Below, piece after piece: positions 27,996-63,282 of a stretch of DNA of 64,000 bases (the stretch's first letter is position 1; every line of letters starts with the position of its first letter). The DNA lies in IMG/VR virus record IMGVR_UViG_3300028805_000047; one strand, written 5' to 3'. Both the position numbers and the translations under genes were made by a program. The notes beneath the pieces were generated by a model, which was not told where the DNA came from, made no database searches, and was given only the letters and a program-made list of their open reading frames with translations. This stretch comes from a virus (Duplodnaviria; Heunggongvirae; Uroviricota; Caudoviricetes).

Positions 27996-28955
27996 ATGAA
28001 AAATTTACAGACTTTTAAGAGCTTCATCAATGAAGCTGCTTCAATAGAAAAAGGACCTGATGGAATGTATCATCCAAAAGATAGAGAGGGATTAGAAAGT
28101 ATTCTTAATCAGCTTATAAAAGAAAGAGGAAATGAGGGTGACTTCAATGATATTGATACGTCAGCAATTACTGATATGAATGGATTATTTTATCGTAATT
28201 GGGATTTTAATGGAAATATATCCAAATGGGATGTAAGCAATGTCACTAATATGCGTGGAATGTTTGAGTTTGCAACATCATTTAACCAACCTATTGGAAA
28301 TTGGAATGTTAGTAAAGTTACTGATATGAGTTCTATGTTTCAATGTGCCTATAATTTTAATCAAGATATATCCAGATGGAATGTAGGTAATGTTAAAAAT
28401 ATGGAAATGATGTTTACATGGACAACATCATTTAACCAACCTATTGGAAATTGGAATGTTAGTAAAGTTACTGATATGAGTCATATGTTTGAAAGAGCAG
28501 AATCATTTAATCAAGACATTTCAAAATGGAATACAGATAATATTACAAGTAAGGTGTATAGCATGTTTGAAAAATGTCCAATTAAGGATGAATATAAGTG
28601 CATATTTACAAAAATTAAAAATGAAATACCTGAAGATGATGACGATGATGAAGGTAGTATGAGTGATCAAGAACTTAAAGATTTATTTAGTAAGAAAGTA
28701 TATGGTGAAATGGAAGAGGATCCAGATCCAGTTGTTTTGAATGCAAAAACTGATGTATTTTGTGATGAGGGTGATATTGATTTTGATAAATGGATGGATA
28801 AACTAATTAGTACTGTTACGGACCGTTATGGAGATGATTTTACTGAAGAAGAGATGAAAAAAGCAGTTTATGCAGATAAAGAATTTTTAGACGATTTAAA
28901 AAGCGAGTATGAATCTTGTAAAGAAGCTTGTGAAGAAAATGATGAGGATTATTAA
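27996..28955 (+). CDS. CTS-module protein with DUF285/BspA-like ~26-residue repeats and an acidic C-terminus (319 aa)
   Basis: N-terminus 'MKNLQTFKSFINEAASIEKGPDGMYHPK...RGNEGDFNDIDTS', then repeats of the 'FNQPIGNWNVSKVTDMSxMF' type. TATAAATA box at about 27960. Confidence 0.6.
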   Translation: MKNLQTFKSFINEAASIEKGPDGMYHPKDREGLESILNQLIKERGNEGDFNDIDTSAITDMNGLFYRNWDFNGNISKWDVSNVTNMRGMFEFATSFNQPIGNWNVSKVTDMSSMFQCAYNFNQDISRWNVGNVKNMEMMFTWTTSFNQPIGNWNVSKVTDMSHMFERAESFNQDISKWNTDNITSKVYSMFEKCPIKDEYKCIFTKIKNEIPEDDDDDEGSMSDQELKDLFSKKVYGEMEEDPDPVVLNAKTDVFCDEGDIDFDKWMDKLISTVTDRYGDDFTEEEMKKAVYADKEFLDDLKSEYESCKEACEENDEDY

Positions 28956-28984
28956 AAATAATTCTTATCTAAAAATACTTCAAA

Positions 28985-29021
28985 AACAACCCTGTCAGAA
29001 ACGTCAGGGTTGTTTTATTTT
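28985..29021 (+). terminator. Rho-independent terminator (conserved hairpin, copy 2)
   Basis: AACAACCCTG/CAGGGTTGTT stem with a T-run. Confidence 0.85.
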
Positions 29022-29140
29022 AAAATAATTTGAAACGATATGTAAAAATATTGTTTATTATATTTACTTCAACAAATTAAATAACAGCATTAAACAAATA
29101 GTTATAAATATATTATAATATAAGTTAAACCTAAAAGATT

Positions 29141-29977
29141 ATGGAAAATTTAAAAACTTTCAAAAGTTTCATCAATGAAGCAGCTTCAATAGAAAAGAGT
29201 CAAGACGGAATGTATCATCCAAAAGATAAAGAGGAATTAGAAAGTATTCTCAATAAGCTTATAAAAGAAAGAGGTAATGAAGGTGACTTCAATGATATTG
29301 ATACATCAGCAGTTACTGATATGTCAGAGTTATTTTGGCATAAAACACTTTTTAATGGTGATATTTCTAAATGGAATACTAGTAATGTTACTAATATGGC
29401 TAATATGTTTGAGATGGCAAGATCTTTCAATCAACCTATTGGTAATTGGGACGTAAGCAGTGTTACAGACATGCATGAAATGTTTTTGCAAGCACAAAAA
29501 TTTAATCAAGACATTTCTAAATGGGATGTAAGTTTTGTAAGAAATATGGATGGTTTATTTTGTCTTGCAGAATCTTTCAATCAACCTATAGGTAATTGGA
29601 ACACAAGTAAAGTGACTAACATGGAAAGAATGTTTAATGGAGCAATTTCTTTTAATCAATCTATTGGAAATTGGAATACTAGTAATGTTACTAATATGGC
29701 TTCTATGTTTCATAATGCAAAAGCTTTTAACCAACCTATTGAAGGTTGGGATGTTAGCAATGTTACTAAAATGAATGATATGTTTTCAGGTACTGATTCT
29801 TTCAATCAAAACATATCTAAATGGGATACAAGTAAAGTTGTTAGTATGGTAGGTATGTTTTTGCGAGCAAAAGCTTTTAACCAAGATATCTCTAATTGGA
29901 ATGTAAAAGAAGTTAAAGATTCTGAAGATATATTTTATAATTGTCCAATCAAAGAAGAATTTAAGCCAAGATTTTAA
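29141..29977 (+). CDS. CTS-module protein with DUF285/BspA-like repeats (278 aa)
   Basis: 'MENLKTFKSFINEAASIEKSQDGMYHPK...' followed by about eight 'FNQ.I..W[DN][TV]S.V..M..MF' repeats. 'ttataaatatat' late box about 40 nt upstream. Confidence 0.6.
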   Translation: MENLKTFKSFINEAASIEKSQDGMYHPKDKEELESILNKLIKERGNEGDFNDIDTSAVTDMSELFWHKTLFNGDISKWNTSNVTNMANMFEMARSFNQPIGNWDVSSVTDMHEMFLQAQKFNQDISKWDVSFVRNMDGLFCLAESFNQPIGNWNTSKVTNMERMFNGAISFNQSIGNWNTSNVTNMASMFHNAKAFNQPIEGWDVSNVTKMNDMFSGTDSFNQNISKWDTSKVVSMVGMFLRAKAFNQDISNWNVKEVKDSEDIFYNCPIKEEFKPRF

Positions 29978-30016
29978 AGAGTAAAATTAAAAAAATTCTT
30001 ATCTAAAATACTTTGT

Positions 30017-30055
30017 AAAACAACCCTGACATTTCTGACAGGGTTGTTTTATTTT
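30017..30055 (+). terminator. Rho-independent terminator (conserved hairpin, copy 3)
   Basis: 12-bp stem AAAACAACCCTG/CAGGGTTGTTTT with a T-run. Confidence 0.85.
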
Positions 30056-30082
30056 AAAATAATTTAAAAATTTTTCAAATTT

Positions 30083-30111
30083 TTGATCCAACTTTCAAAA
30101 AGTCATATTAT
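30083..30111 (+). promoter_or_regulatory. Sigma70-type promoter TTGATC-N17-TATTAT (copy 3)
   Basis: Same conserved element. Confidence 0.6.
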
Positions 30112-30154
30112 ATTTACCTCATCAAATTAGTATTAACGATTAAAATTAAGGATT

Positions 30155-30442
30155 ATGACAGATATAACACAAGAGTCAGTCTTTAAAAAATTTATAAAAT
30201 TTTCTGACGAGTTTCCAAGAGAAAATGAAGAGATAGTATTCATTGAAAAGATGCACAGCAATTTGCATCTTACAATATGTGCATATTATGTTGAAAGATC
30301 AAAGAAAGATTTTGAAGAGTGCTACATATATTCAAACAATTACCAGAATACATTTTCTACAGACAAGACCGAATTAAGATTAGGTGATTTCTATTGGATG
30401 TATGCGAAAGACTTTAAGGAAAATTTAAGTAAAATGTTTTAA
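30155..30442 (+). CDS. Hypothetical protein (95 aa)
   Basis: SD 'aaggat'; downstream of the conserved promoter. Confidence 0.5.
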   Translation: MTDITQESVFKKFIKFSDEFPRENEEIVFIEKMHSNLHLTICAYYVERSKKDFEECYIYSNNYQNTFSTDKTELRLGDFYWMYAKDFKENLSKMF

Positions 30443-30452
30443 AATTAATTTT

Positions 30453-31094: not shown

Positions 31095-31104
31095 ACTATA
31101 TACT

Positions 31105-31544: not shown

Positions 31545-31610
31545 TTTTAAATTTCTGTAAAAACATTGTTTATTATATTTACTTAATTATTAATTTTAAA
31601 CTTAACAAAA

Positions 31611-32535: not shown

Positions 32536-33390
32536 ATGCCAATACGAAAAGTACACGGTGGATATAAATTCGGCAAGGTCGGAAAAGTATATCGAACAAA
32601 GAAAAAAGCTGAAAAGCAGATGAGAGCAATGTATGCAAATGGTCTTGCTGAAGAAACCAAGGATCTTCCAACATTTAAAAATTTTATTAATGAATCTGAA
32701 GATGTTTCAAAATCATTTGAAGAACTTAAATCAGGTGACAAGCTTTATAGATGTAAACTTTATTTTGATTCTAATCACAATAAAGATTTAGGTATTCCTG
32801 ATTCTATAAAAGTTTGGACAATGACTGTTAGTATGGTAGGCTATTTTAATAATGAATTTCAAATAAGTTATGCATATGACACAGACAACTTTAAAGAAGC
32901 AATTAAAATACAAGATGCCTATGAAAGCTGTGATATGGAAGATGATAGTTCATTTATTGCAACTAGCATTGATGCATTGGTAAAAGGTGTTTCAAAAGTA
33001 TTTGGCAATAAAGTTGGTTCTAAAGTCTTAGTCAGTGCTAAAGATTCAGATACCGGTAATTCTAACACATTTGCAAGTCTTTCAACTGGTGATAAGTTTT
33101 ATGTATGGAAAGCAAATGACAGAGAGTACATATATGAATATACTTTTCAAGACATTGAAAAGGACAGATATGATGAGGTTTCTATAGTAGGCATTAATAG
33201 TTTTACAGGTCATGAAACATTCCCTTTGTCACAAGAGGAATTTCATAAGTCAATAGTAAAGATTGACGCAAATGGTAAAGATGTTGATTTGGATAACTAC
33301 AAAATTAGTGATTTAAAAACATTGATTTGTGTCGATAAAAATGAAATCCTTGATATTCTCAGAGCTTCTGAAAGCGATATTGTAAAATAA
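32536..33390 (+). CDS. Protein with a conserved 47-aa basic N-terminal module followed by an internal CTS-like motif (284 aa); paralog of 52369..53127
   Basis: 'MPIRKVHGGYKFGKVGKVYRTKKKAEKQMRAMYANGLAEETKDLPTFKNFINESED' is nearly identical over the first ~50 aa to the ORF at 52369, and the upstream ~30 nt are identical as well. Confidence 0.55.
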   Translation: MPIRKVHGGYKFGKVGKVYRTKKKAEKQMRAMYANGLAEETKDLPTFKNFINESEDVSKSFEELKSGDKLYRCKLYFDSNHNKDLGIPDSIKVWTMTVSMVGYFNNEFQISYAYDTDNFKEAIKIQDAYESCDMEDDSSFIATSIDALVKGVSKVFGNKVGSKVLVSAKDSDTGNSNTFASLSTGDKFYVWKANDREYIYEYTFQDIEKDRYDEVSIVGINSFTGHETFPLSQEEFHKSIVKIDANGKDVDLDNYKISDLKTLICVDKNEILDILRASESDIVK

Positions 33391-43142: not shown

Positions 43143-43565
43143 GTATCTACAAAGAAACAGCAAAAAGATTTAGAAAATCAAATAAATTTAATTAGTGAGT
43201 TTGCAAATAAAAATGGTTATAAAATATCGAAAATTTACAAAGACATTGCATCTGGCATTTCTTTTGACAGAAAAGAATTTAAAGAGATGTTAGATGAAAT
43301 AATTGCACATAAGATTAAATTAGTCATAATTAAAGATAAAGATAGATTGACAAGAGTTTCATTTGATTTATGGAAATCTTTATTCAAGCAATTTGATTGT
43401 GATTTAATAGTTGTCAATATTTATAATAATGGCGATTCTATCGAAAAAGAAATTTTTGAAGATATAATTTCAATGATTCATTGTTTTGCGATGAGAATGT
43501 ATTCATCAAGACGAAAGAAAAAATTGCAATTGACATCAGAAGATTTAAAAAACGAAATAGAGTAA
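43143..43565 (+). pseudogene. tnpA: tnpA remnant (IS607-type serine recombinase catalytic domain with N-terminal deletion and frameshift)
   Basis: 'KQQKDLENQINLISEFANKNGYKISKIYKDIASGISFDRKEF...KLVIIKDKDRLTRVSF...' matches the resolvase fold. The region that should carry the active-site Ser is absent and there is no start codon until 43287. Confidence 0.6.
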
Positions 43566-44971: not shown

Positions 44972-47900
44972 ATGGATGCATTATTATCTTTTAAAGATTT
45001 TTCTAAATCTGAACTATTAGAAAATCAATCTCAATACTATGATTCTCTTTTTAAAAAGATTAACATTTATACAAATAATGTCAGACTTGGTATAATTAAT
45101 GAAAATGCCAAATATATTGACAGAGATATTTATCTTATTGAAGAAGAGAAGCAAGTTGCTCATGATATTTTAATAATGCTCAAAGAGCAGTTGGTAAAAA
45201 CTGCTTATGAAAGATATGATATTGTTTTAGATGAAGGCTTGATTGACAGTACAAAGAATTTTGTCAATAAAGTAAAGAATAAAGCTCAAAATACCGTAAA
45301 TAACTTAAAAGATACAAAGTCCAAAATAACGACTGCATTCAATATGTTGCTTGAAGCCATTAAGAAAGGTTTTAAGACAATATCAGAATTATTAAAGTTT
45401 TTCAGAGAATGGCTGTTTGAAAAATTGAGCGATACGCTTAGTGACTCTATTGAAAAATTAGGCCTTATTGGTAAAGGTAAAAACGAATCTGAAAAAGAAA
45501 CAAATTCAATTTATAACGGTCCAATCAATGTAGGTACTGCAACCATTACTGAATCAAAAAATAAAGATGATGAAAAATCAGATAAAGAAGATCTTGCTAA
45601 TTCATTTAAGAAATATACTGAAAATATAAAGTCAGTAGAGATTGACAATAGTGAGCAAAGCAATGCTGACAATGGTTTGAAGAGAGAAGGTGAAAAAGAC
45701 TTTTTTGACGCCGTAGTCGCTGCTACAATGACCAAGGTTAAAGAAATTCCTGATGCTGACAAAGTTGAATTGAATGAAAGTGTATTTTCAGACCTTGTAA
45801 ATGGAATTAAGAATAATGACCTGTTTAGAAAATTTGCAAATAATGCATTTGTAAAGAAGATTCAAGGAAATAAAGTCGTTCGATTTTTGTCAATGATTTT
45901 AATTGGTATTGTTTCTTCAATAATTGTAACACAATGCTTGCCCGTTATTCTATCAGCTATCACACTGGCGCTTGGAGCAACAGCAGGCGGGACTTTGGTG
46001 ACATTGATTCCTATTGTATGTAGAATTATATGGTCATCAAGAGCAGTGCTTAAAGTATTTATTAACAGATATAAAGATTGGAAACATGTTAAAGAAACAG
46101 GTGAGGACAACAGCTTTATAACTGGTAAATTCTTACTTGACTTACTTGTTCAAATCGCCATACTTGCTGCAACAAATGTAATTCCGATGGGGACTATTTT
46201 AGGTAAGATTGGTGGATTTGTATCTAAAATACCATTTGTCGGCGATTTGGCAAAAACTGTCGGAACTGAAGTTGGATCATTTGTAGGTAAGTTTATCGGA
46301 GCAATCCAAGATTTACTATTAACTGCAACTGAAAAAACTTCAAGTGCCATTGTCGGACAGATTATACCTCAAGAGCAAGTACAAAAAATTGTTGCTGAGG
46401 CTTTCAGGAATTGCGGACTTGCAAACTGGTTTTCAAGTAAATTCAATTATGAATATACACATGAAGAAACTGTAACTCAAACAAAGAATTTGTCAAGTGA
46501 GGAACATGACGCAAAACAAAAGGAGATAGCTAAGAAAATGCGTGAAGATGCTTCAAATCCTGACCTTGATAAACAATTCCAAAAAGAATTCAGTAATTCA
46601 GGAACAAATGGGGCTCAGGCAAACTGTCCTACTGATGCCTTGACAGGTGATAATGAAAAATATGCAGATGTCGCGAAAAGTTTGAGAAATGAAATTGAAA
46701 AAGCTACAGGTGTAGACGGTATACATTTTATAGATAAGGACGGACTACCTGTCGTAGTTGACAATTCTGGAAATCCTATTACAGACAGAAGTATTCTTGA
46801 CAAAGTTCAGAATACTGTGTTGAACGGCAACGGTGGTCAAGGCTGGATTGGAAATGGAAAGGATCAGTTTCCAATAACTACAAGAAAAGCTGGAGGAGCG
46901 ATATTCAAAATTTGGGGTGGTGAAGCAAAAGAAACTATTTCTAAATTAGTTGCAGACACACTTGACGGAGATTTATTCCCTCTTGTATTTTCACCTTTCA
47001 AGAGATTCAAAGATAATGCGATATTGTTAAGCAAGTCAAATGCAAGTTACAGTAAAAAGTTCAGCGGTAATTTAGGTCGTGGAATGGTCGTTGAGATGAC
47101 ATTTAAAGAACTTAAAGAAAAAGCGACTAATACCAAATCGATTAGCGAACTTGAAACTTTATTTAAAAATTTGAAAAATAATGCCGAGACAAGGGTTGAA
47201 AGCGATAAAGAGGCATTTGAAAAAGTAGACAAGATAAATTATGATGACAACAAGCTTCTTGTAATGTATGCAAAAGTTGAAGATGAGAATGTACCTTTCT
47301 TTGCATTCTCATATGATGCAATGAAACTTATTGACTGCTATAAAATGCCTGAAGGAACATCTAAGACAAGTAAGGAACGTACGGAAGTTATGAATGTAGA
47401 AGGCTTGTTCTCCCATTTGAATATAGTTCCTGAAGAAAAACACGACACTGAAGTAAAGGATAAGATATTTGATATGCTTGCCTTATATCTTCAGAAGGCT
47501 GCAGTCACAATGACACGAAAATATTATTTGCCTATTGTCAAAGACGGTGAAAAATTCGTACCTGTCAAAGAAGCAGGTGATACTTCCACTCTTACTGAAT
47601 TATACGGTATGTCTCTTGACAGAATTTGTGAAATTTTGAACTCTAACAAGGAAACTGCCGACGGTGAATTTAGAAGTTTGACAAATACAATATTCTCAGG
47701 TATCAATAACGAAAATGATCCTACTATTGAGAAAGAGAAAACTTATGTAAAGGATAATATTATTCCAATGCTTTCAGAGGATACGTTCTTGTCAAAAATG
47801 ATTAAGGAAGATCCTAAATACCGTAGGTTGAAAAAATGGCTTTATGACGATGATGGTAATTTCAATAAAGATGTAATTGACAAAGATGTCGAAAGCAAGC

Positions 47901-48553
47901 TTTATAGAATAATGACATCTTATTCTGATGATACTACAAGAAGTTGGAAAGACTTATTTAAGAATCTTGATGACAAGAAAATCAAGTCATTAAATATAAA
48001 GGCATTGGATGAAAATATATGGAATAACAAAAGTAAGATTAAGAAAGGTGCAAAAGAACTTGAAAATAATAAAGAGATTGAAAAAGAGCCTGAACATAAA
48101 CTTAAAGAAATCAAATCTTCTGAAAAGCGTTCAACGACATTTATCAGTAATATGATAAAACGTTTTGATGTTGATGAAAAGAAATCTGACATACATAAGG
48201 CATTTGTAAAACAAGCTATGAAAGATTGTGAGTCCTTGTATAAGGATGGAAATCTTAATGAAGAGATTTTAAGAGACAAATATATTGCTGCAGCGCTTAC
48301 AAGAATATTCAATTCTAAAAAATATCGTACAGATGAAAATTTTGATGAAGTAGCTAAGAAGAGAATAAGTCGTGCTGTGAACCTGTCAAGTTTTAAAGAC
48401 GAAGGTGATAAGCTGAAAGAAAGTCTTTTCAATGCATATAAACTTATTAAAGATAAGAAAATATCAAATGAGTATAGAGGATTGAAAGAAGGCTTGTATG
48501 GCAATCTTATGACATTTAATGAATTTATTAATGAGTGCTGTTTTCCTTTCTGA
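44972..48553 (+). CDS. Large virion-associated protein (1193 aa) with hydrophobic transmembrane-like segments and long charged coiled-coil regions; possibly a tape-measure or ejection protein
   Basis: Late boxes upstream. Hydrophobic stretch 'FLSMILIGIVSSIIVTQCLPVILSAITLALGATAGGTLVTLIPIVC' and a glycine-zipper region. No enzymatic motif recognised. Confidence 0.5.
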   Translation: MDALLSFKDFSKSELLENQSQYYDSLFKKINIYTNNVRLGIINENAKYIDRDIYLIEEEKQVAHDILIMLKEQLVKTAYERYDIVLDEGLIDSTKNFVNKVKNKAQNTVNNLKDTKSKITTAFNMLLEAIKKGFKTISELLKFFREWLFEKLSDTLSDSIEKLGLIGKGKNESEKETNSIYNGPINVGTATITESKNKDDEKSDKEDLANSFKKYTENIKSVEIDNSEQSNADNGLKREGEKDFFDAVVAATMTKVKEIPDADKVELNESVFSDLVNGIKNNDLFRKFANNAFVKKIQGNKVVRFLSMILIGIVSSIIVTQCLPVILSAITLALGATAGGTLVTLIPIVCRIIWSSRAVLKVFINRYKDWKHVKETGEDNSFITGKFLLDLLVQIAILAATNVIPMGTILGKIGGFVSKIPFVGDLAKTVGTEVGSFVGKFIGAIQDLLLTATEKTSSAIVGQIIPQEQVQKIVAEAFRNCGLANWFSSKFNYEYTHEETVTQTKNLSSEEHDAKQKEIAKKMREDASNPDLDKQFQKEFSNSGTNGAQANCPTDALTGDNEKYADVAKSLRNEIEKATGVDGIHFIDKDGLPVVVDNSGNPITDRSILDKVQNTVLNGNGGQGWIGNGKDQFPITTRKAGGAIFKIWGGEAKETISKLVADTLDGDLFPLVFSPFKRFKDNAILLSKSNASYSKKFSGNLGRGMVVEMTFKELKEKATNTKSISELETLFKNLKNNAETRVESDKEAFEKVDKINYDDNKLLVMYAKVEDENVPFFAFSYDAMKLIDCYKMPEGTSKTSKERTEVMNVEGLFSHLNIVPEEKHDTEVKDKIFDMLALYLQKAAVTMTRKYYLPIVKDGEKFVPVKEAGDTSTLTELYGMSLDRICEILNSNKETADGEFRSLTNTIFSGINNENDPTIEKEKTYVKDNIIPMLSEDTFLSKMIKEDPKYRRLKKWLYDDDGNFNKDVIDKDVESKLYRIMTSYSDDTTRSWKDLFKNLDDKKIKSLNIKALDENIWNNKSKIKKGAKELENNKEIEKEPEHKLKEIKSSEKRSTTFISNMIKRFDVDEKKSDIHKAFVKQAMKDCESLYKDGNLNEEILRDKYIAAALTRIFNSKKYRTDENFDEVAKKRISRAVNLSSFKDEGDKLKESLFNAYKLIKDKKISNEYRGLKEGLYGNLMTFNEFINECCFPF

Positions 48554-52368: not shown

Positions 52369-53127
52369 ATGCCAATACGAAAAGTACATGGAGGATATAA
52401 ATTCGGCAAGGTCGGAAAAGTATATCGAACAAAGAAAAAAGCTGAAAAACAAATGCGAGCAATGTATGCACATGGATTAGCTGAAGAGACCAAGGACCTG
52501 CCGACATTCAGTGCCGTAATAAATGAAGAAATTAATCCGCAAGTAGTAAATCATTCTTGGCAAGTATCTGATTTTATGAGAGGTGCTGAGCAAATTGATA
52601 AAAGTTTAACCGATTTGGTTGATAGTTTCTTGAATAATTTTGTCAATAAAATTTTTACATATTACTCACAGCAGGCTGATTTAAATGACAGTGATAAAAT
52701 TATAACGCCAATTGTCATAAGCCTTAATTCAGTAAGTTCTAAAAAACAATCAAAACCATTTGAAATCGTCATCGATTCAAATTATGAAGAACCATTATTA
52801 AATGATGGAAAGTACGGCCTTAGTGAAAAAACACGGTTTGTAAAAATAGATCAAGAAGATGATTATAAAACACTAGTCGGTAATATAATCTATTCTGATA
52901 GTGCGACAATGGAAACACTTGGTAAATTTTACTTTAATAAATTTTCACTCGGCCAGTCTTTTGTAATATCTATTAGAAATGAAGAAGGTGAAGGAACTCA
53001 ATATGCAAAACAGGCATTTGATTCAGGATGTAATGCAAATAATGGCATTATAGAATTTACTTTGAACAATTATCCTGATTTTGCTGAACTTGCTAATAAG
53101 TTTATAAATTCATTGAATACGTTATAA
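52369..53127 (+). CDS. Paralog of 32536..33390: conserved basic 47-aa N-terminal module with a divergent C-terminus (252 aa)
   Basis: 'MPIRKVHGGYKFGKVGKVYRTKKKAEKQMRAMYAHGLAEETKDLPTF...'. About 170 nt including the upstream leader are ~90% identical to 32505..32680. Confidence 0.55.
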   Translation: MPIRKVHGGYKFGKVGKVYRTKKKAEKQMRAMYAHGLAEETKDLPTFSAVINEEINPQVVNHSWQVSDFMRGAEQIDKSLTDLVDSFLNNFVNKIFTYYSQQADLNDSDKIITPIVISLNSVSSKKQSKPFEIVIDSNYEEPLLNDGKYGLSEKTRFVKIDQEDDYKTLVGNIIYSDSATMETLGKFYFNKFSLGQSFVISIRNEEGEGTQYAKQAFDSGCNANNGIIEFTLNNYPDFAELANKFINSLNTL

Positions 53128-53131: not shown

Positions 53132-53521
53132 ATGGAAAATTTAAAAACTTTCAACAGCTTCATCAATGAAGCAGCTTCACTCGAAAAGGGACCTGATGGA
53201 ATGTATCATCCTAAATACAAGTTTGAGCTTAAAGCTCTTATGGAACAGTTGATAAAGAAAAGAGGTAATAGAGGTGATTTCAATGATATTGATACATCAA
53301 CCATTACTGATATGAGTGAATTATTTAAGTATAATAAAGAATTTAATGGAGATATTTCTAAATGGAATACAAGCAATGTCAAAGTCATGAAAGATATGTT
53401 CTTTAAAGCAGAAAAGTTTAATAGAGACATATCTCAATGGGATACAAGTAAAGTCACTGACATGAGTAATATGTTTGATGATTGTCCAATAAAAGAGGAA
53501 TATAAACCAAAATTCAAATAA
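53132..53521 (+). CDS. Short CTS-module protein with two or three DUF285-like repeats (129 aa)
   Basis: 'MENLKTFNSFINEAASLEKGPDGMYHPK...GDFNDIDTS...NGDISKWNTSNVKVMKDMF'. Confidence 0.55.
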   Translation: MENLKTFNSFINEAASLEKGPDGMYHPKYKFELKALMEQLIKKRGNRGDFNDIDTSTITDMSELFKYNKEFNGDISKWNTSNVKVMKDMFFKAEKFNRDISQWDTSKVTDMSNMFDDCPIKEEYKPKFK

Positions 53522-56424: not shown

Positions 56425-57648
56425 ATGACAAAAATAAACTCAAAAATTATCCGTCTCGACGGCGAAATAGTCGAGTCAGCTGATGTTGTTGAAAATTTAA
56501 TAAATGCGTTTGAAGATTCTGACGCAATGTCTCAGGATATTGACGATTTACATTCAGAAGCAATTTTAACAATTCTGACACATATTAAATCATCTGATGT
56601 TGATGACAGCTATGATTTGGAATTTAGAGAATTGAAAATAACTGATATTGATTTTCCAAGCCTTAACTTGTTTTATGACAAAGCTGCATATGTTATATTA
56701 AAAACTGTAAAGACGGTATTTAAAGATGTCGTTACAATTCTTGATGCACAGCATGAGTTATTTTCACAGACATTCTATGTTCCTGAACAAATGTTTTTCA
56801 CGGCATTGAATACAAAAATGAATGTCGATATGGCATATGAACAAGATTCTGTATCTGAATCATTCTTGAATAAAGTTTATTTGACAGGTACGGAATTGAG
56901 ATACTGTGACGAGTTCGCTCTTGAATCGAAAGAAGACAGAGAAGTAATCCACAATGTAATGCACAAAAATGATGTTGCATTGTATAAGTCAAATAAAAAG
57001 GTATTTGAAGCACTTTCAAAAATGTTCAACGTTGTAAAAACAGAAAACAAGAACATCTTTAAGTTATACCATAAACCACAAGGTTCTTCTGAATATGAAA
57101 ACCTCGGTGTACGTGTACGTTGTTCAAACAGACTGCTTGCATCTGTTGACACTTTCAAAATGAAATCTGAAAGTTCTATTCTTGAACTTAACAGAGAATC
57201 AAATGAAAGCTTGAATAATTATTATAAGACTAAAATAAACCAATTGCTTAAAGAAGAGAAGAAAGCGACAATCAACATCCCTAAGAATTGTCAATCTTTG
57301 ATTCTTGAATTCCTTCCAGTTCTTTGCACGCCTGAAACTGTAAATCAATGCGAGTTGACAACAACAGGAGTTGATACGCCGAAAATGGAAATCAAGTGTA
57401 ATGAAGAATTGCCTCAGGAACTTCAAAATAAGGTAAAAGACGCTATTGACAAAGCAAAATCAATCTACAATTCAAATGAGAGTGCTAAGAAAATTGTTAC
57501 GATGTACTATCAGATTAAAGAACTTTTGAAAGGTCTTACAGAAGATCAAGTTCGTAAAATGTCTCCTTTTGAACAGGATGAGATGATTTGGAATCTTTTA
57601 GCTATTAAGAATTCAAGTCAAAATAATGAAGAAGGCATGGTAGGTTAA
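56425..57648 (+). CDS. Hypothetical protein (407 aa)
   Basis: ORF tiling; followed by a terminator. Confidence 0.5.
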   Translation: MTKINSKIIRLDGEIVESADVVENLINAFEDSDAMSQDIDDLHSEAILTILTHIKSSDVDDSYDLEFRELKITDIDFPSLNLFYDKAAYVILKTVKTVFKDVVTILDAQHELFSQTFYVPEQMFFTALNTKMNVDMAYEQDSVSESFLNKVYLTGTELRYCDEFALESKEDREVIHNVMHKNDVALYKSNKKVFEALSKMFNVVKTENKNIFKLYHKPQGSSEYENLGVRVRCSNRLLASVDTFKMKSESSILELNRESNESLNNYYKTKINQLLKEEKKATINIPKNCQSLILEFLPVLCTPETVNQCELTTTGVDTPKMEIKCNEELPQELQNKVKDAIDKAKSIYNSNESAKKIVTMYYQIKELLKGLTEDQVRKMSPFEQDEMIWNLLAIKNSSQNNEEGMVG

Positions 57649-57762: not shown

Positions 57763-58884
57763 ATGATAAGCATTGAAAACAATGATTGGAAAGTTTGTCT
57801 TACAGAAAGTTATGACGGCTATAATCAGATAAGTTTTGTAAATGGAGTAGAAACAACAGATGGAGGAACACATGTAGACTATGTAATAAATGAAATTATT
57901 AAAAAATATAAAGCCTTGTTTGATAAGAAGAACAAGTGCAATGTTCCCCGTTCGCTAATTATTCTTAATTTTTTCATATTCATCAGTGCGACTGTAAAGA
58001 ATCCAAAATTCAGCTCGCAGACAAAGACTAAATTGGTTTCATCTTCTTCAGACTTCTATAATCCTATTGAAATTACTGACAAGTTCATAAAGGAATTATA
58101 TAAGTCAGAGATAACAAACCTTTTACTTGACATGCTTGCAAAGAAGAACGAGGCTGATGAACGGACGTCGCTCAGAAAACTTAATTCACAGCTGAAACGG
58201 CTTTCAGTAAAGAAACTTGTCGACTGCTCTCTTGCTGGAAAGGACAATATCAATACAAGCCTTTCAATAACTGAAGGTGATTCTGCGTCTGCAGGTTTCA
58301 GGAAATTCAGATCTGCCAAGACACAAGCTTTATATCCTATAAGGGGTAAATTATTGAATGTCAGATGTGCGAATAATTCCAAAATATACGCATCTGAAGA
58401 ACTGAAAGGAATTATGTCAGCTATGGGGCTTAAAATAGGCGAAGATCCGTTTAAGGATGGAAAATGCTCGCTCAGGATTGGTGAAATTAGAATATACTCT
58501 GATGCTGATACAGATGGCTCGCATATTGCTGGACTTATTTTGAATTTCGTCGCAAAATACTGGCCGTCGATGATAAAGAACCACAGACTTGCAAGAGTCA
58601 ATACACCGATTATAAAAGCGACAAATACAAAAAACAAATCTGAACAATACAGGTTTTACTACTTAAATGAATATAAGGAATGGGAAAAGACACATCAGGC
58701 TTCAAAGTATGCGATAGAATACTACAAGGGCCTTGGTGCACTTGACGACAAAGAATATCAAGAAATCGTTCAGAATCCGAATATCTATTATTATGAGTTG
58801 GATGATGTATATGAGGAGGAATTGGATATTTGGTTTGGTGACGACGCGGATAAAAGAAAGGAAAAAATGTCAAAAACAATTTAA
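57763..58884 (+). CDS. Type II topoisomerase ATPase-subunit fragment: C-terminal transducer and TOPRIM domains only (GyrB / T4 gp39-gp60-like); the GHKL ATPase domain is not encoded here
   Basis: 'NPKFSSQTKTKLVSS' (E. coli GyrB 'DPKFSSQTKDKLVSS'), 'SITEGDSASAGFRKFRSAKTQALYPIRGKLLNV' (TOPRIM EGDSAGG...PL+GKILNV) and 'IYSDADTDGSHIAGL'. The ORF begins mid-transducer ('SFVNGVETTDGGTHV'). Confidence 0.8.
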   Translation: MISIENNDWKVCLTESYDGYNQISFVNGVETTDGGTHVDYVINEIIKKYKALFDKKNKCNVPRSLIILNFFIFISATVKNPKFSSQTKTKLVSSSSDFYNPIEITDKFIKELYKSEITNLLLDMLAKKNEADERTSLRKLNSQLKRLSVKKLVDCSLAGKDNINTSLSITEGDSASAGFRKFRSAKTQALYPIRGKLLNVRCANNSKIYASEELKGIMSAMGLKIGEDPFKDGKCSLRIGEIRIYSDADTDGSHIAGLILNFVAKYWPSMIKNHRLARVNTPIIKATNTKNKSEQYRFYYLNEYKEWEKTHQASKYAIEYYKGLGALDDKEYQEIVQNPNIYYYELDDVYEEELDIWFGDDADKRKEKMSKTI

Positions 58885-59050
58885 TTTTTGTGAGTATGTC
58901 AGAGACAGAAGCAATTACAAAACGCCAGAAAAAATTGTCTGATAATAAGGATTCTATGAAAGTAGTCGTAAAAGTCAGCAATATTTTTTCAGATATTAAG
59001 AACTCAAACCAAGAAAAATTAAAAGTAACTGTTTAAAATTATAATTACAA

Positions 59051-60355: not shown

Positions 60356-60380
60356 GGTATTTTTATTAAAAATTTAAAAC

Positions 60381-61097: not shown

Positions 61098-61118
61098 TTT
61101 GAAAATTTTCTAATGATT

Positions 61119-61147
61119 TTAATTCAACTTTCAAAAACTTGTATTAT
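61119..61147 (+). promoter_or_regulatory. Diverged copy of the conserved promoter element (TTAATT-N17-TATTAT)
   Basis: Spacer and -10 are conserved, -35 is degenerate. Followed by a TATAAATA-like box ('ttataaatatatcat') at about 61185. Confidence 0.4.
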
Positions 61148-61229
61148 ATTTACCTTAACAAATTAAATAACAGAGTTAAACAAATAATTATAAATATATC
61201 ATAATATAAGTTAAGCCTTAAAAAAGATT

Positions 61230-62072
61230 ATGGAAAATTTAAAGACTTTTAGAAGTTTCATCAATGAAGCAGCTTCAATAGAAAAAGGTTCTGACGGAAT
61301 ATATCACCCTCAAAATAAAGAAGAATTAAAATCACTTATTAAACAGCTTATAGAAGAAAGAGGTTATGAAGGTGATTTTAATGATATAGATACATCTGCA
61401 TTGACTGATTTTAGAGGTGTGTTCTATGAAATGAAATCTTTTAATGGTGACATTTCCAAATGGAATGTTAGTAATGCTACAGATATGTATGGCATGTTTC
61501 AACGGGCAGAAAGTTTCAATAGAGATATATCTAAATGGAATGTGAGTAAAGTACGAGAGATGGGATGTATGTTCTGTGATGCCTATGCTTTCAATCAACC
61601 TATAGGTGGTTGGGATGTACATAATGTGTTCGATATGGCATATATGTTCTGTAATGCTAAAAATTTTAATCAAGACCTCAATTCATGGAATCTTGACAGT
61701 GCTGATATGGTTAACGGTATGTTTAAAGGAGCTACACATTTTAATCAAGACTTGAATAAATGGAATATGTCTAAAATACATTCTACACATGCTATGTTTG
61801 CCTATGCAGAAAACTTTAATGGTGATATATCTACATGGGATGTTCGTCGAGTTGAAGACATGCATGACATGTTTCTTCATGCAATAGAATTTAACGGAGC
61901 AATTGGAAATTGGAATGTGTCAAATGTAAAAACAATGGTTGGAATGTTTGCGTATGCGAAGTGCTTTAACCAAGACTTGAGAGACTGGAATATTGACAAT
62001 GTAAAATACTACAATTATATGTTTGAAGGTTGTTCTATTAAAGATGTGTACAAGCCTAAGTTCAAAAACTAA
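61230..62072 (+). CDS. CTS-module protein with DUF285/BspA-like repeats (280 aa)
   Basis: 'MENLKTFRSFINEAASIEKGSDGIYHPQ...GDFNDIDTS', then about eight 'FN.DIS.WNVS.V..M..MF' repeats. Confidence 0.6.
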   Translation: MENLKTFRSFINEAASIEKGSDGIYHPQNKEELKSLIKQLIEERGYEGDFNDIDTSALTDFRGVFYEMKSFNGDISKWNVSNATDMYGMFQRAESFNRDISKWNVSKVREMGCMFCDAYAFNQPIGGWDVHNVFDMAYMFCNAKNFNQDLNSWNLDSADMVNGMFKGATHFNQDLNKWNMSKIHSTHAMFAYAENFNGDISTWDVRRVEDMHDMFLHAIEFNGAIGNWNVSNVKTMVGMFAYAKCFNQDLRDWNIDNVKYYNYMFEGCSIKDVYKPKFKN

Positions 62073-62122
62073 ATTTCAATAAATTATATAACAACCAAAA
62101 TGATAAATTTTTGTAAAAACAC

Positions 62123-62151
62123 TTGACTTTTCTAAATACAATCTATATATT
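62123..62151 (+). promoter_or_regulatory. Near-consensus sigma70 promoter TTGACT-N17-TATATT in an otherwise non-coding 250-bp region
   Basis: Exact 17-nt spacer, followed by two stem-loops (62204..62220 and 62224..62258) and no ORF until 62323. Confidence 0.45.
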
Positions 62152-62157
62152 GCAAAT

Positions 62158-62262
62158 ATGAAAAGTAGTTGATGAGTCTTACATAGGTGAGATAGTCAAT
62201 AGAGGCTGGTTGTTCCAGCCGGTAAAGTTTAGAAATCTGTATCAAATTCCTAAACTTTATAA
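62158..62262 (+). ncRNA. Candidate small structured RNA (about 100 nt) downstream of the sigma70-like promoter
   Basis: Hairpins GGCTGG-ttgtt-CCAGCC and AAAGTTTAG-17 nt-CTAAACTTT. No coding potential. A 3' U-tract is not clean. Confidence 0.25.
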
Positions 62263-62322
62263 ATAAATTCGTATAATTGGTAATAATTTTAATAGGATTT
62301 AGAACATTTTAATATAAAAATT

Positions 62323-63282
62323 ATGGAAAATTTAAAAACTTTCAGAAATTTCATCAATGAAGCAGTTTCAATAGAAAAAGGTACTGATGGTATGTATCAT
62401 CCTAAAAGTAAAGATGAGCTTGAAGCACTTATAGAACAGTTGATAAGTGAAAGAGGTAATGAAGGTGATTTCAATGACATTGACACTTCTCTTGTCACAG
62501 ACATGAACTACTTGTTCTTTCAGAAGAATGACTTCAACGGTGACATAAGCAAGTGGGACACTAGCAATGTCACAGACATGAGTGCGATGTTCTGCCAATG
62601 TGACAAGTTCAACTGTGACATCTCTGGCTGGGACACTAGCAATGTCACGAACATGAACTCAATGTTCACTTGGTGCAAAGAGTTCAACCAAGACATCAGC
62701 AACTGGAACACAAGGAATGTGAAGAGCATCTCAAACATGTTCTTCAGAGCAGAGAAGTTCAATCAGCCAGTCGGAAAGTGGGACACGGGGAATGTCAAAG
62801 ACATGAGCCACACATTTGAGTATGCGCTATCTTTCAATCAAGACTTGAGCAAGTGGAGCACGAAGAAAGTGAAGACTATGGAGAAGATGTTCTATGAAGC
62901 GAAAGCGTTCAACAGCGATGTGACAACTTGGGACACTAAGAATGTGAAAGATTTCAACGGAATGTTCTGTGGAGCAAGCTCTTTCAATCAAGACATAAGT
63001 AAGTGGAACACAAGCAAAGCGATTGACATGTGTGGAATGTTCTGCAATGCAACTTCTTTCAACCAAGACATCTCTTGTTGGGACACGAGCAATGTAGAAG
63101 GCGTCTATGAGATGTTCTGGGGAGCAAAAAGCTTTGATCAAGACTTGAGCGGATGGAAGCTTGAGAAAGTCGATAGCTGGATTGACAAGATGTTTGACCA
63201 CGACTACAAGAACGGAATGCCACGCAAATATGTCGAGATGAGTGGAGCTTTCATGAACATGTTCAAAAATCTTCGAAGATAA
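62323..63282 (+). CDS. CTS-module protein with DUF285/BspA-like repeats (319 aa); chimeric, with an AT-rich native N-terminal module and a GC-richer repeat body
   Basis: 'MENLKTFRNFINEAVSIEKGTDGMYHPK...GDFNDIDTS', then repeats. From about 62480 codon usage switches to C/G-ending codons (AAC, AAG, TTC, GAC, ATC), unlike every other gene in the window. Confidence 0.6.
   Translation: MENLKTFRNFINEAVSIEKGTDGMYHPKSKDELEALIEQLISERGNEGDFNDIDTSLVTDMNYLFFQKNDFNGDISKWDTSNVTDMSAMFCQCDKFNCDISGWDTSNVTNMNSMFTWCKEFNQDISNWNTRNVKSISNMFFRAEKFNQPVGKWDTGNVKDMSHTFEYALSFNQDLSKWSTKKVKTMEKMFYEAKAFNSDVTTWDTKNVKDFNGMFCGASSFNQDISKWNTSKAIDMCGMFCNATSFNQDISCWDTSNVEGVYEMFWGAKSFDQDLSGWKLEKVDSWIDKMFDHDYKNGMPRKYVEMSGAFMNMFKNLRR

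What the first reader, a model, noticed from the sequence alone, without database searches (positions are those of the whole stretch)
27996..63282. DUF285/BspA-type ~26-residue surface-protein repeats recruited as putative capsid cargo
Five CTS-module proteins consist almost entirely of tandem 'FNQ.I..W[DN][VT]S.V.[DN]M..MF' units (3 to about 9 copies). This repeat is characteristic of Mycoplasma/Listeria-type surface proteins (DUF285, 'surface protein 26-residue repeat'). The paralogs differ in repeat number, and one (27996) adds a long acidic tail. A surface-adhesin repeat inside a phage head is unexpected; the function may be host-protein binding after injection.
Basis: partly seen in the sequence, partly recalled or inferred. 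Interest (0 to 1): 0.65.

Follow-up and report, generated by a model that had tools for sequence, protein, structure and literature searches.

The report
Phage-head-tagged DUF285 repeat proteins
An uncultured jumbo phage, distantly T4-like, carries five copies of a bacterial surface-protein repeat (DUF285/PARCEL) in which the secretion signal is replaced by a 13-residue tag closely resembling the one phage T4 uses to load proteins into its head, so they are probably packaged and injected with the DNA, though this is not proven.

Summary
Five + strand paralogs (27996, 29141, 53132, 61230, 62323) are DUF285/PARCEL proteins (PF03382 E 3e-27 to 1e-95). They have 2-9 tandem units of exactly 25 residues, not 26, plus an N-terminal cap. 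One has a 128-aa tail with net charge -27.

The window is an uncultured jumbo phage with a T4-type head module: an S77 prohead protease fused to a scaffold, and a gp23-type capsid protein.

Only the first 13 residues, M(E/K)NL(K/Q)TFxxFINE|A, form the tag. They keep all four residues that mutagenesis showed to matter in T4's capsid targeting sequence MKTYQEFIAE.

- The same 9-residue motif recurs in the scaffold repeats and at the capsid protein's N-terminus, and almost nowhere else in the window.
- The tag also heads four unrelated proteins in the window.
- It sits at ORF N-termini in at least 97 IMG/VR matches, on 42 unrelated cargos, but is essentially absent from cellular genomes.
- Most tagged genes follow a T4-late-like TATAAATA box.
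- There is no Sec or lipoprotein signal, unlike their Bacteroidota homologs.
- A small DUF285 protein of a T4-like Campylobacter phage was found in virions by mass spectrometry.

Verdict: a new cargo family in a known system. Packaging is well supported but indirect, and the function is unknown.

The parts
27996..28955 (+). DUF285 paralog 1 (319 aa). Leader MKNLQTFKSFINE is codons 1-13 (27996-28034). It is followed by an N-cap, 5 units of 25 aa and a 128-aa acidic tail (net -27).
29141..29977 (+). DUF285 paralog 2 (278 aa). Leader MENLKTFKSFINE (29141-29179), N-cap and 8 units. In the AF2 model residues 1-20 are low-confidence, with a free helix at 2-14; the rest is a solenoid with pLDDT above 95.
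53132..53521 (+). DUF285 paralog 3 (129 aa). Leader MENLKTFNSFINE, N-cap and 2 units. It lies 5 nt downstream of the long-leader gene 52369-53127.
61230..62072 (+). DUF285 paralog 4 (280 aa). Leader MENLKTFRSFINE, N-cap and 8 units. About 100 nt upstream is nearly identical to the region upstream of 29141.
62323..63282 (+). DUF285 paralog 5 (319 aa). Leader MENLKTFRNFINE, N-cap and 9 units.
25122..25490 (+). Non-DUF285 gene with the same leader (MENLQTFKGFINE). Its cargo is an LPD11 domain, a domain of the 'polyvalent proteins' proposed to be delivered with invading DNA.
   Evidence: PF18824, E 7.9e-25; PMC5512222
63319..63660 (+). Non-DUF285 gene with the same leader (MEFKTFNTFINE|S). Its cargo is basic (pI 9.6) and related to the C-terminal part of 32536-33390.
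32536..33390 (+). Gene with a long, two-part leader: the basic segment MPIRKVHGGYKFGKVGKVYRTKKKAEKQMRAMYA, then GLAEE (an L-x-E site), then PTFKNFINE|S at residues 46-53.
52369..53127 (+). Second gene with the long two-part leader (…PTFSAVINE|E) and a different cargo.
2120..3904 (+). T4 gp21-type (Peptidase_S77) prohead protease fused to a scaffold-like C-terminal half. That half holds 13 I-x-E sites, including five tandem 17-aa repeats (AYSKMISEN…) that resemble the leader.
4002..5681 (+). gp23-type major capsid protein. Its N-terminal residues 11-19, TWGKLIEE|S, carry the same motif as the leader.
27958..27965 (+). TATAAATA box 38 nt upstream of 27996. Equivalent boxes start at 29103, 61189, 62258, 25095 and 32492 (before the other tagged genes) and at 2063, 3920 and 3973 (before the protease and capsid genes).

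Best explanation
The five DUF285/PARCEL proteins are internal head proteins of a distantly T4-like jumbo phage.

Proposed sequence of events:
1. Each protein is made late in infection as a precursor. Its first 13 residues, M-(E/K)-N-L-(K/Q)-T-F-x-x-F-I-N-E, form an amphipathic helix equivalent to T4's capsid targeting sequence (CTS).
2. The helix resembles one unit of the phage's own scaffold repeat (AYSKMISE|N) and the end of the capsid protein's propeptide (TWGKLIEE|S). It therefore co-assembles with the scaffolding core before the shell closes.
3. The S77 (gp21-type) prohead protease cuts after the I-N-E glutamate, the L/I-x-E rule. This releases the tag and leaves a 13-35 kDa LRR-like solenoid free inside the head.
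4. The solenoid is ejected with the DNA. In the host it most likely acts as a protein-binding module, for example a counter-defence or take-over factor. Repeat number and surface residues would diversify among paralogs.

Shown here: family membership, the leader and its distribution, the head-module context, the shared motif and promoter box, and the absence of secretion signals.

Inferred, not shown: targeting, cleavage, retention in the head, ejection and the target.
For: 1. Match to the T4 CTS. The T4 CTS is MKTYQEFIAE. Any protein fused to it is packaged, and it is cut once (PMC8442874). Mutagenesis puts targeting at residues 4 and 7 and processing at residues 8 and 10 (PMC9026906). The window leader aligns as KTF-xx-FI-x-E, so all four positions are kept (Y to F, F, I, E).

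2. Cleavage rule. gp21 cuts after L/I-X-E, and gp22 is cut at a Glu-Ala bond (PMC9026906). The leaders end in I-N-E followed by A or S.

3. Head module. The phage encodes a Peptidase_S77 prohead protease and a gp23-type capsid protein.

4. Motif concentration. The motif [FWY]xx[FLMIV][IL]xE[ASGN] occurs 16 times in the 72 window proteins (20,019 aa): five in the scaffold repeats, one at capsid residues 12-20, eight in leader proteins and only two elsewhere. The scaffold half has 13 I-x-E against 3.07 +/- 1.55 in shuffles, 0 of 5000, although five of these sites come from tandem repeat copies and are not independent. A relative with 78% capsid identity keeps the motif in its capsid protein and in four tandem leader genes.

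5. Modularity. The leader heads unrelated cargos in the window: LPD11, two other families, and a long-leader variant.

6. Distribution. In IMG/VR the DNA pattern for KTFxxFINE[AS] gave at least 118 loci. 97 of 119 matches lie within 6 residues of an ORF's start Met, and 90 such ORFs of 60 aa or more fall into 42 unrelated cargo clusters. In 596 Gb of cellular genomes the pattern gave 58 matches, of which 4 are N-terminal and about 2 look genuine. The two largest cargo clusters map to T4-like cyanomyoviruses.

7. Other lineages. Leader plus DUF285 recurs in a 136-kb IMG/VR contig with 8 tandem leader genes, 5 of them DUF285, and in the 78% relative.

8. Promoter box. TATAAATA lies 15-90 nt upstream of a same-strand start at 19 of 23 sites, against 17.8% for other 8-mers of the same composition. 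It precedes the protease, the capsid gene, a baseplate gene and 6 of the 9 leader genes. It precedes none of the recognisable recombination and replication genes at 12531-19426 or the helicase at 59051.

9. No secretion signals. There is no signal peptide, lipobox or TM segment. Among the 120 best cellular homologs, 55 have signal- or lipobox-type N-termini, many carry T9SS tails, and none has the leader.

10. Structure. AF2 (pLDDT 95.4) leaves residues 1-20 as a low-confidence free helix and folds the rest as one solenoid. Foldseek finds only LRR proteins, weakly.

11. Precedent. Gene 1-30 of T4-like Campylobacter phage vB_CcoM-IBB_35 is a 180-aa DUF285 protein (E 7.7e-33) starting MNFYNLIYE. 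It was detected in purified virions by MS/MS (PMC3322345, Table S2).
Against: - No direct evidence of packaging, cleavage or ejection exists for this phage.
- The mature proteins are mostly acidic (pI 4.3-5.3; 27996 has net charge -34). T4's IPs, by contrast, are described as highly basic (PMC8442874), and acidic proteins sit less comfortably next to packed DNA.
- The IBB_35 precedent shows virion association, not head location. That gene lies near baseplate, Vgr and PAAR genes.
- In other phages (Synechococcus ACG-2014f, Citrobacter Tr1) DUF285 domains sit next to tail genes, behind other N-terminal domains and without the leader. The fold is therefore also used in other, probably external, contexts.
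- The leader has three extra N-terminal residues compared with T4.
- Three leader genes (52369, 53132, 63319) have only one-mismatch versions of the promoter box.
- The cleavage specificity of this protease is inferred from family membership and motif enrichment, not measured.
- An internal L-I-K-E site in the cap helix would also fit the cleavage rule.
Confidence: 0.65

Rival explanations
1. They are external virion proteins, such as tail, baseplate or head-surface adhesins. The shared N-terminus would be a docking peptide that plugs interchangeable receptor-binding solenoids into one site on the particle.
For: - DUF285/BspA-type LRR proteins are annotated as surface proteins in bacteria.
- In Synechococcus phage ACG-2014f and Citrobacter phage Tr1, DUF285 genes sit beside tail-collar and tail-assembly genes.
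- The virion-detected IBB_35 protein is encoded near Vgr and PAAR genes.
- Genes 27996 and 29141 lie about 4 kb upstream of a block of large late-promoter genes of unknown function (33.6-48.5 kb) that could be fibres.
Against: - The shared unique part is only 13 residues and is predicted as a free, low-confidence helix.
- The same leader heads unrelated small proteins, including an LPD11 domain and very basic proteins, and 42 unrelated cargo families elsewhere.
- The leader matches the T4 CTS at all four functional residues, ends in a protease site, and mirrors the scaffold repeat and the capsid propeptide.
- The tail-adjacent DUF285 proteins of other phages lack the leader and have other N-terminal domains instead.
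Confidence: 0.12
2. They are non-virion late cytoplasmic proteins. The conserved N-terminus would then reflect recent duplication or a favoured translation-initiation region, not a targeting signal.
For: - The five genes are clear paralogs, 52-66% identical.
- Two of them also share about 100 nt of upstream DNA, so some N-terminal identity is expected from duplication alone.
Against: - The leader is shared with non-homologous proteins in the window and is conserved at the protein level in distant phages, with varied codons and varied x positions.
- It is nearly absent from the N-termini of cellular proteins.
- In the long-leader genes it occurs internally, at residues 46-53, so it is not an initiation-region feature.
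Confidence: 0.1
3. They are prohead-core accessory proteins. They would be targeted to the scaffold core by the leader, but then degraded or expelled during maturation, or retained as inert filler, so that they have no role in the next host cell.
For: - In T4 the scaffold and core proteins gp22, gp67 and gp68 carry the same cleavage motif and are cut into fragments during maturation (PMC9026906).
- The acidic character of the solenoids differs from that of DNA-binding IPs.
- Each solenoid contains a few further L/I-x-E sites.
Against: - Folded 13-35 kDa domains with very few accessible sites are more like T4 IPs and Alt, which are cut once and retained.
- Paralog expansion with hypervariable surface positions, together with a co-tagged LPD11 domain, points to host-directed functions.
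Confidence: 0.1
4. They are secreted or lipid-anchored surface proteins, as in Mycoplasma, Listeria and Bacteroidota, expressed by the phage to alter the host cell surface.
For: The family names (DUF285, 'PARCEL repeat-containing surface protein', BspA) and the closest homologs are surface proteins with lipoboxes or T9SS tails.
Against: - There is no hydrophobic N-terminus, lipobox or TM segment.
- Pfam reports only DUF285, with no T9SS C-terminal domain.
Confidence: 0.02

Closest known systems
[quoted passage not shown]
   Same: - A short N-terminal tag with the same key residues (K-T-aromatic-x-x-F-I-x-E), ending in an L/I-x-E site followed by Ala or Ser.
- An S77-family protease and a gp23-type capsid protein in the same genome.
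- The tag is the only part conserved across otherwise unrelated, paralog-rich, non-essential-looking genes that are partly clustered in tandem.
- A late-type TATAAATA box upstream.
   Different: - The phage is a distant, uncultured jumbo lineage: its capsid protein is 25-33% identical to those of a 462-kb metagenomic phage, Tenacibaculum PTm1, Sphingomonas PAU and the Lak phages. It is not a T-even.
- The tag has three extra N-terminal residues.
- A two-part, 53-residue version of the tag also exists.
- The cargo is an acidic LRR-like repeat solenoid, not a small basic protein.
- The protease is fused to the scaffold.
- Packaging and injection are untested.
DUF285 / PARCEL / BspA-type repeat proteins of Mollicutes, Listeria and Bacteroidota (PF03382, TIGR02167; PMC2996958)
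   Same: - Canonical 25-residue tandem units with the same conserved hydrophobic and aromatic positions.
- Variable unit number among paralogs.
- The usual N-terminal cap (…EL..LI…G…DIDTS.ITDM..LF).
- 40-60% identity to Flavobacteriaceae proteins.
   Different: - No signal peptide, lipobox, TM segment or T9SS tail; a phage head-targeting leader is present instead.
- Small single-domain proteins of 129-319 aa.
- The DNA dyad symmetry described for PARCELs was not detected with a crude 7-mer test.
Gene 1-30 of Campylobacter phage vB_CcoM-IBB_35 (orthologs in CPt10 and CP21)
   Same: - A small (180 aa) stand-alone DUF285 protein in a T4-like myovirus, with a similar cap (KPKTKADLKELINDL…DIDTSDITDF).
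- Its N-terminus, MNFYNLIYE, fits aromatic-x-x-L-I-x-E.
- It was found in purified virions by MS/MS (PMC3322345).
   Different: - Different phage lineage and host.
- Its leader is not the KTFxxFINE type.
- Its location in the virion is unknown, and the gene neighbours baseplate genes.
Ejection proteins with long propeptides in phiKZ, SPN3US and 201phi2-1-type giant phages
   Same: - Head-internal proteins are targeted by N-terminal propeptides and cut after Glu by a gp21-related protease.
- Paralogs share conserved N-termini (PMC5694885).
   Different: - Those propeptides are often longer than 100 residues.
- Their cleavage motif is A/S/G-x-E.
- Here the tag is T4-like in both length and sequence.

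Membership tests
DUF285 / PARCEL repeat (PF03382, TIGR02167) | Score above the curated HMM cut-offs | tested here: met
   PF03382 scores 95-316 bits against a cut-off of 25. TIGR02167 scores 46-148 bits against a cut-off of 30. This holds for all five proteins.
DUF285 / PARCEL repeat (PF03382, TIGR02167) | Tandem array of canonical 25-residue units, with periodic conserved hydrophobic residues and variable residues between them (PMC2996958) | tested here: met
   There are 32 units in exact 25-residue register. Phe5 and Trp12 are invariant. Asn6, Ile9, Val17, Met20, Met23 and Phe24 are strongly conserved. Positions 1, 3, 21, 22 and 25 have entropy above 3 bits.
DUF285 / PARCEL repeat (PF03382, TIGR02167) | Dyad symmetry of the coding DNA (the 'palindromic' part of PARCEL) | tested here: inconclusive
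   The share of 7-mers whose reverse complement also occurs in the same repeat region is 0.05-0.12. That is no higher than in codon-shuffled versions or control genes. The test is crude and is not the method of the original paper.
BspA-type / PARCEL surface (lipo)protein | Export signal: Sec or lipoprotein signal peptide, TM anchor or T9SS C-terminal domain | tested here: not met
   The maximum hydrophobicity of a 12-residue window in the first 40 aa is 0.42 or less. The maximum 19-residue window anywhere is 1.02 or less. Pfam finds only DUF285. By contrast, 55 of the 120 best cellular homologs have signal- or lipobox-type N-termini, and many carry PF18962.
BspA-type / PARCEL surface (lipo)protein | LRR-like solenoid fold | tested here: met
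   The AF2 model has pLDDT 95.4 and pTM 0.89. All Foldseek PDB matches are LRR proteins (TLR13, Nogo receptor, F. prausnitzii 4gt6, TpLRR), but they are weak: E 3e-3 or worse and TM 0.36 or less. No solved homolog is found by sequence.
T4-type CTS-targeted internal head proteins | An N-terminal propeptide of 10-19 residues with the targeting residues (T4 positions 4 and 7) and the processing residues (positions 8 and 10) | tested here: met
   The leader M(E/K)NL(K/Q)-T-F-x-x-F-I-N-E aligns to M-K-T-Y-Q-E-F-I-A-E, with F, F, I and E at the four positions (PMC8442874, PMC9026906).
T4-type CTS-targeted internal head proteins | The genome encodes a gp21-family prohead protease, a scaffold core with L/I-x-E sites and a gp23-type shell | tested here: met
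   Peptidase_S77 at 50.4 bits (cut-off 27) and phrog_207; Gp23 PF07068 at 55.8 bits (cut-off 24.4). The scaffold half holds 13 I-x-E sites against 3.07 expected.
T4-type CTS-targeted internal head proteins | The tag is the only conserved element among otherwise unrelated cargo genes | tested here: met
   There are four non-DUF285 leader genes in the window, 42 unrelated cargo clusters in IMG/VR and tandem leader-gene clusters in two other phage lineages.
T4-type CTS-targeted internal head proteins | Physical presence in the head, single cleavage after the tag, and ejection into the host | not testable with these tools
   This needs virion proteomics or biochemistry. The only precedent is a related small DUF285 protein detected in IBB_35 virions (PMC3322345).
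T4-type CTS-targeted internal head proteins | Small, basic, DNA-associated mature protein (as for T4's IPs) | tested here: not met
   The mature DUF285 proteins have pI 4.3-5.3, apart from one at 8.0. Basic character does not define CTS cargo in general, because GFP, nucleases and other proteins are packaged when tagged (PMC3012670).

The most novel reading that the evidence does not exclude
A T4-type capsid targeting sequence (KTFxxFINE|A/S and close variants) may be a conserved, virus-specific 'address label' across a very wide span of T4-superfamily phages, from cyanomyoviruses to jumbo phages of Bacteroidota. If so, the injected proteome of uncultured phages could be read directly from sequence. 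Within that proteome, DUF285/PARCEL solenoids would be a recurrent, rapidly diversifying class of injected host-protein binders. They would have been captured from the host's own surface-protein repertoire by swapping the secretion signal for the head tag. Their rod-like shape, with a cross-section independent of repeat number, might let them pass through the tail folded.
Probability: 0.3. Interest if true: 0.75.

Novelty: new member of a known kind. Interest (0 to 1): 0.55.

Why it matters
If the tag works as it does in T4, three things follow.

1. A 13-residue sequence rule predicts which proteins uncultured T4-superfamily phages carry in their heads and deliver into cells. These first-minute effectors include counter-defence factors and are otherwise very hard to identify.
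2. DUF285/PARCEL, a widespread repeat family with no known function, gains a concrete and testable role as injected LRR-like binders. It also gives a clear example of a host surface-protein module being re-addressed by a change of signal.
3. The resemblance between the tag, the scaffold repeat and the capsid propeptide suggests how a CTS recognises the prohead core.

The T4 CTS is already used to load foreign proteins into capsids, so natural variants of the tag and of its cargo are also of practical interest.

Tried and rejected
- Megablast of 27-47 kb against 50,697 phage records found nothing. tblastn of the 66-aa leader plus cap and of the long MPIRK… leader also found nothing, so no cultured close relative is available.
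- The look-up of encoding contigs for the 29141 protein returned nothing on record.
- tblastn hits that seemed to cover the N-terminus in Aeromonas phage D3 and Vibrio phage C-ZP2022 turned out to be internal repeats of giant DUF285 proteins, not leader matches.
- A homology search with the whole 29141 protein was swamped by about 8000 cellular DUF285 proteins. It was useful only for showing that they carry export signals and not the leader.
- A sequence search of the PDB found nothing, and Foldseek gave only weak LRR matches.
- PHROGs gave no functional annotation for the large late-promoter genes at 33.6-48.5 kb (two weak matches, both to families of unknown function), so they cannot be called tail fibres.
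- PADLOC gave no hits for the leader proteins.
- The test for PARCEL DNA dyad symmetry was negative or inconclusive.
- The secreted-lipoprotein reading was rejected on hydrophobicity.
- An exact TATAAATA is absent upstream of 52369, 53132 and 63319; only one-mismatch versions are present.
- Literature searches found no paper linking DUF285 to a CTS or to a phage head.

Full report
**1. The observation**

All five pass the curated thresholds of Pfam DUF285 (PF03382; E 3.2e-27 to 9.5e-96) and of TIGR02167, the 'PARCEL repeat' model (E 4e-12 to 3e-44).

The unit is exactly 25 residues long. This is the canonical PARCEL length (PMC2996958), not 26. In register there are 5, 8, 2, 8 and 9 Trp-containing units, each array preceded by a Trp-less capping unit.

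Phe5 and Trp12 are invariant across the 32 units. Asn6, Ile9, Val17, Met20, Met23 and Phe24 are strongly conserved. Positions 1, 3, 21, 22 and 25 are highly variable.

The protein at 27996 ends in a 128-residue tail with 44 acidic and 17 basic residues.

**2. What the window is**

The window has about 30% G+C and is almost entirely transcribed on the + strand. It encodes:
- a tail sheath, a gp25-like protein and a baseplate protein;
- a Peptidase_S77 (T4 gp21-type) prohead protease fused to a scaffold-like C-terminal half;
- a gp23-type major capsid protein;
- a RecA/UvsX-like protein, topoisomerase II subunits, an Mre11-like nuclease, a DnaB-like helicase, a DNA methylase and a CCA-adding-type enzyme.

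The capsid protein is only 25-33% identical to those of a 462-kb metagenomic phage, Tenacibaculum phages PTm1 and pT24, Sphingomonas phage PAU and the Lak phages. Nothing matches at the DNA level. The window therefore comes from an uncultured jumbo phage with a T4-type head-assembly module.

Two IMG/VR contigs carry a capsid protein that is 78% identical.

The closest homologs of the repeats are BspA-type proteins of Bacteroidota, mostly Flavobacteriaceae. This suggests the host group and the likely source of the repeat.

**3. The leader**

All five proteins begin M-(E/K)-N-L-(K/Q)-T-F-x-x-F-I-N-E-A. Only these roughly 13 residues are separable from the domain.
- The segment that follows (…Y-H-P-K-x-K-x-E-L…L-I…G…D-I-D-T-S-x-x-T-D-M) is the usual DUF285 N-terminal cap. 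The Mbov_0838 PARCEL lipoprotein model aligns from residues 25-27 in two paralogs.
- The cap also appears in leaderless cellular and phage homologs.
- In an AlphaFold2 model (mean pLDDT 95.4, pTM 0.89), residues 1-20 are low-confidence with a free helix at 2-14. Residues from about 21 to 278 form one confident solenoid.
- The Foldseek matches are all leucine-rich-repeat proteins, but weak. There is no solved homolog by sequence.

**4. Comparison with the T4 capsid targeting sequence**

The T4 CTS is MKTYQEFIAE. It is cut off once by gp21, and any protein fused to it is packaged (PMC8442874; PMC3012670). Amber-suppression mutagenesis placed targeting at residues 4 and 7 and processing at residues 8 and 10 (review PMC9026906). 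gp21 cuts after L/I-X-E, and in gp22 at a Glu-Ala bond.

Aligned on K-T, the window leader has Phe, Phe, Ile and Glu at those four positions. The next residue is Ala or Ser.

**5. Evidence inside the window that this motif belongs to head assembly**

The pattern [FWY]xx[FLMIV][IL]xE[ASGN] occurs 16 times in the 72 predicted proteins (20,019 residues):
- five times in tandem 17-residue repeats (AYSKMISEN…) of the scaffold-like half of the protease gene;
- once at residues 12-20 of the capsid protein (within TWGKLIEES);
- eight times in leader proteins;
- twice elsewhere.

The scaffold half holds 13 I-x-E sites, against 3.07 +/- 1.55 in shuffles (0 of 5000). It has the highest density of such sites in the window, although five of the sites come from tandem repeat copies and are not independent. 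The 78% relative keeps DWGKVIEES in its capsid protein.

The leader thus looks like one unit of the scaffold repeat and like the end of the capsid propeptide. This fits co-assembly with the core and removal by the same protease. That step is inferred, not shown.

**6. Modularity**

The same leader heads unrelated proteins in the window:
- 25122-25490, whose cargo is an LPD11 domain (PF18824, E 7.9e-25). This domain was described in 'polyvalent proteins' proposed to be delivered with invading DNA, with solo forms found next to phage structural genes (PMC5512222).
- 63319-63660, a basic protein.
- 32536-33390 and 52369-53127, where the motif sits at residues 46-53, behind a basic segment and an L-A-E site.

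In the 78% relative, four leader genes lie in tandem about 10 kb from the capsid gene. One is a 282-aa DUF285 protein. Another begins MEKLKSYKQLIAE|S, which is even closer to T4.

A 136-kb IMG/VR contig has eight tandem leader genes, five of them DUF285 proteins of 182-279 aa.

**7. Distribution**

In 97 of 119 matches the motif lies within six residues of an ORF's start Met. The 90 such ORFs of 60 aa or more fall into 42 unrelated cargo clusters.

These cargos include very basic proteins, a glucosaminidase, a DPBB lytic transglycosylase, an ATP-grasp enzyme and a cytidylyltransferase-like protein.

The two largest clusters map to T4-like cyanomyoviruses.

The same pattern in 596 Gb of bacterial and archaeal genomes gave 58 matches. 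Only four were N-terminal, and one of those is evidently a mis-binned cyanophage fragment. The leader is therefore a virus-specific N-terminal feature.

**8. Expression**

TATAAATA is, to my knowledge, the T4 late-promoter consensus. PMC2988020 describes an 8-bp TATA box and similar consensuses in T4 relatives, but the text I could read does not spell out the sequence.

The box occurs 23 times in the window, and 19 of these lie 15-90 nt upstream of a same-strand start codon. For the 55 other 8-mers of the same composition the pooled figure is 17.8%.

The box precedes the protease, the capsid gene (twice), a baseplate gene and six of the nine leader genes, including four of the five DUF285 genes. 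It precedes none of the recognisable recombination and replication genes at 12531-19426 or the helicase gene at 59051. The other three leader genes have one-mismatch versions.

**9. Export signals**

None of the leader proteins has a hydrophobic N-terminus or a transmembrane segment. Among the 120 best cellular homologs, 55 have signal- or lipobox-type N-termini, many carry T9SS tails, and none has the leader. The phage copies have in effect exchanged an export signal for the head tag.

**10. Precedents**

Gene 1-30 of the T4-like Campylobacter phage vB_CcoM-IBB_35 lies at HM246720.1 24670-25212. It encodes a 180-aa DUF285 protein (E 7.7e-33) that starts MNFYNLIYE. It is listed among the 38 virion proteins identified by ESI-MS/MS (PMC3322345, Table S2).

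Two DUF285 proteins are also packaged in particles of the giant virus AaV (PMC7507832).

These precedents show virion association of the fold. They do not show head location: the IBB_35 gene lies near Vgr and PAAR genes.

In Synechococcus phage ACG-2014f and Citrobacter phage Tr1, DUF285 domains follow other N-terminal domains and sit beside tail genes. Phages therefore also use the fold in other contexts.

**11. Weak points**

- Packaging, cleavage and ejection are all inferred.
- The mature solenoids are acidic (pI 4.3-5.3; 27996 has net charge -34), unlike T4's highly basic IPs (PMC8442874).
- The specificity of this protease has not been measured.
- The function is unknown. A protein-binding, host-directed role is suggested only by the LRR-like fold, the hypervariable surface positions, the paralog expansion and the company of an LPD11 domain.

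**12. Verdict**

The mechanism, CTS-tagged internal head proteins processed by a gp21-type protease, is a known kind.

What is new is the cargo family, the distant jumbo-phage lineage, and the demonstration that a near-T4 tag is widespread and virus-specific. I found no paper that links DUF285 to a CTS or to a phage head.

Noticed in passing
window 32536-33390 and 52369-53127: Two proteins share a 53-residue two-part leader. It runs from a very basic segment (MPIRKVHGGYKFGKVGKVYRTKKKAEKQMRAMYA; weak match to phrog_31267), through G-L-A-E-E (an L-x-E site), to PTFxx(F/V)INE. The cargos differ. The C-terminal part of 32536 resembles the protein at 63319, which has only the short leader. tblastn found no match for the long leader in the phage collection.
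   Followed up: partly
window 2120-3904 (residues about 325-415 of the protein): The prohead protease is fused to a scaffold-like half that contains five tandem 17-residue repeats (AYSKMISENAVTKDQLD), each ending in an I-x-E site. The 78% relative instead has a separate 307-aa protein with KYTxYLSEHL repeats (L122, ORF starting at 8960).
   Followed up: partly
window 43287-43565 and 43569-44822: A TnpB-type gene (OrfB_IS605 plus the Cas12f1-like TNB domain, E 3e-21) sits inside the phage genome. By eye, the short ORF before it looks like a fragment of a serine recombinase, which would suggest an IS607/IS605-family insertion.
   Followed up: partly
window 48509-48553: The 1193-aa ORF 44972-48553 ends with …NLMTFNEFINECCFPF*. 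This is a leader-like motif followed almost at once by a stop codon. It may be the remnant of a decayed leader gene, or chance.
   Followed up: no
window 29020-29140 and 61110-61229: About 100 nt upstream of 29141 and of 61230 are nearly identical, including the TATAAATA box. The promoter and leader were therefore duplicated together as one cassette, while the repeat regions diverged.
   Followed up: partly
IMG/VR loci L003-L120: The MKTFxxFINE[AS] leader heads many unrelated proteins in environmental phages. These include peptidoglycan hydrolases (glucosaminidase, DPBB), a RimK-like ATP-grasp enzyme, a cytidylyltransferase-like protein and several extremely basic proteins. Separately, about ten matches fall in a conserved internal motif, G(Y/F)KTFxPFINE(S/A)YD, of a family of proteins several hundred residues long; these are not leaders.
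   Followed up: partly
window 57763-58884: The GyrB-like topoisomerase subunit starts at profile position 35 of the DNA_gyraseB domain and lacks the N-terminal ATPase domain. The gene may therefore be split. The upstream ORF 56425-57648 has no family match and is preceded by a TATAAATA box.
   Followed up: no
window 61332-61673, 62520-62762 and 62827-63201 (- strand): Long antisense open frames of 80-124 codons overlap two of the DUF285 genes. Similar antisense frames appear over the DUF285 genes of L054. They are probably a by-product of the codon composition of the repeat rather than genes. A crude test found no excess reverse-complement symmetry.
   Followed up: partly
L128 (Synechococcus phage Syn9 gp114, DQ149023.2 102876-104207): As annotated, Syn9 gp114 starts 16 codons upstream of an internal Met followed by PPTYNEIFNE|N. 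This segment aligns with the MKTFxxFINE leader of its IMG/VR homologs, so the true start may be that internal Met. The gene lies in the structural module, two genes after the small terminase subunit.
   Followed up: no
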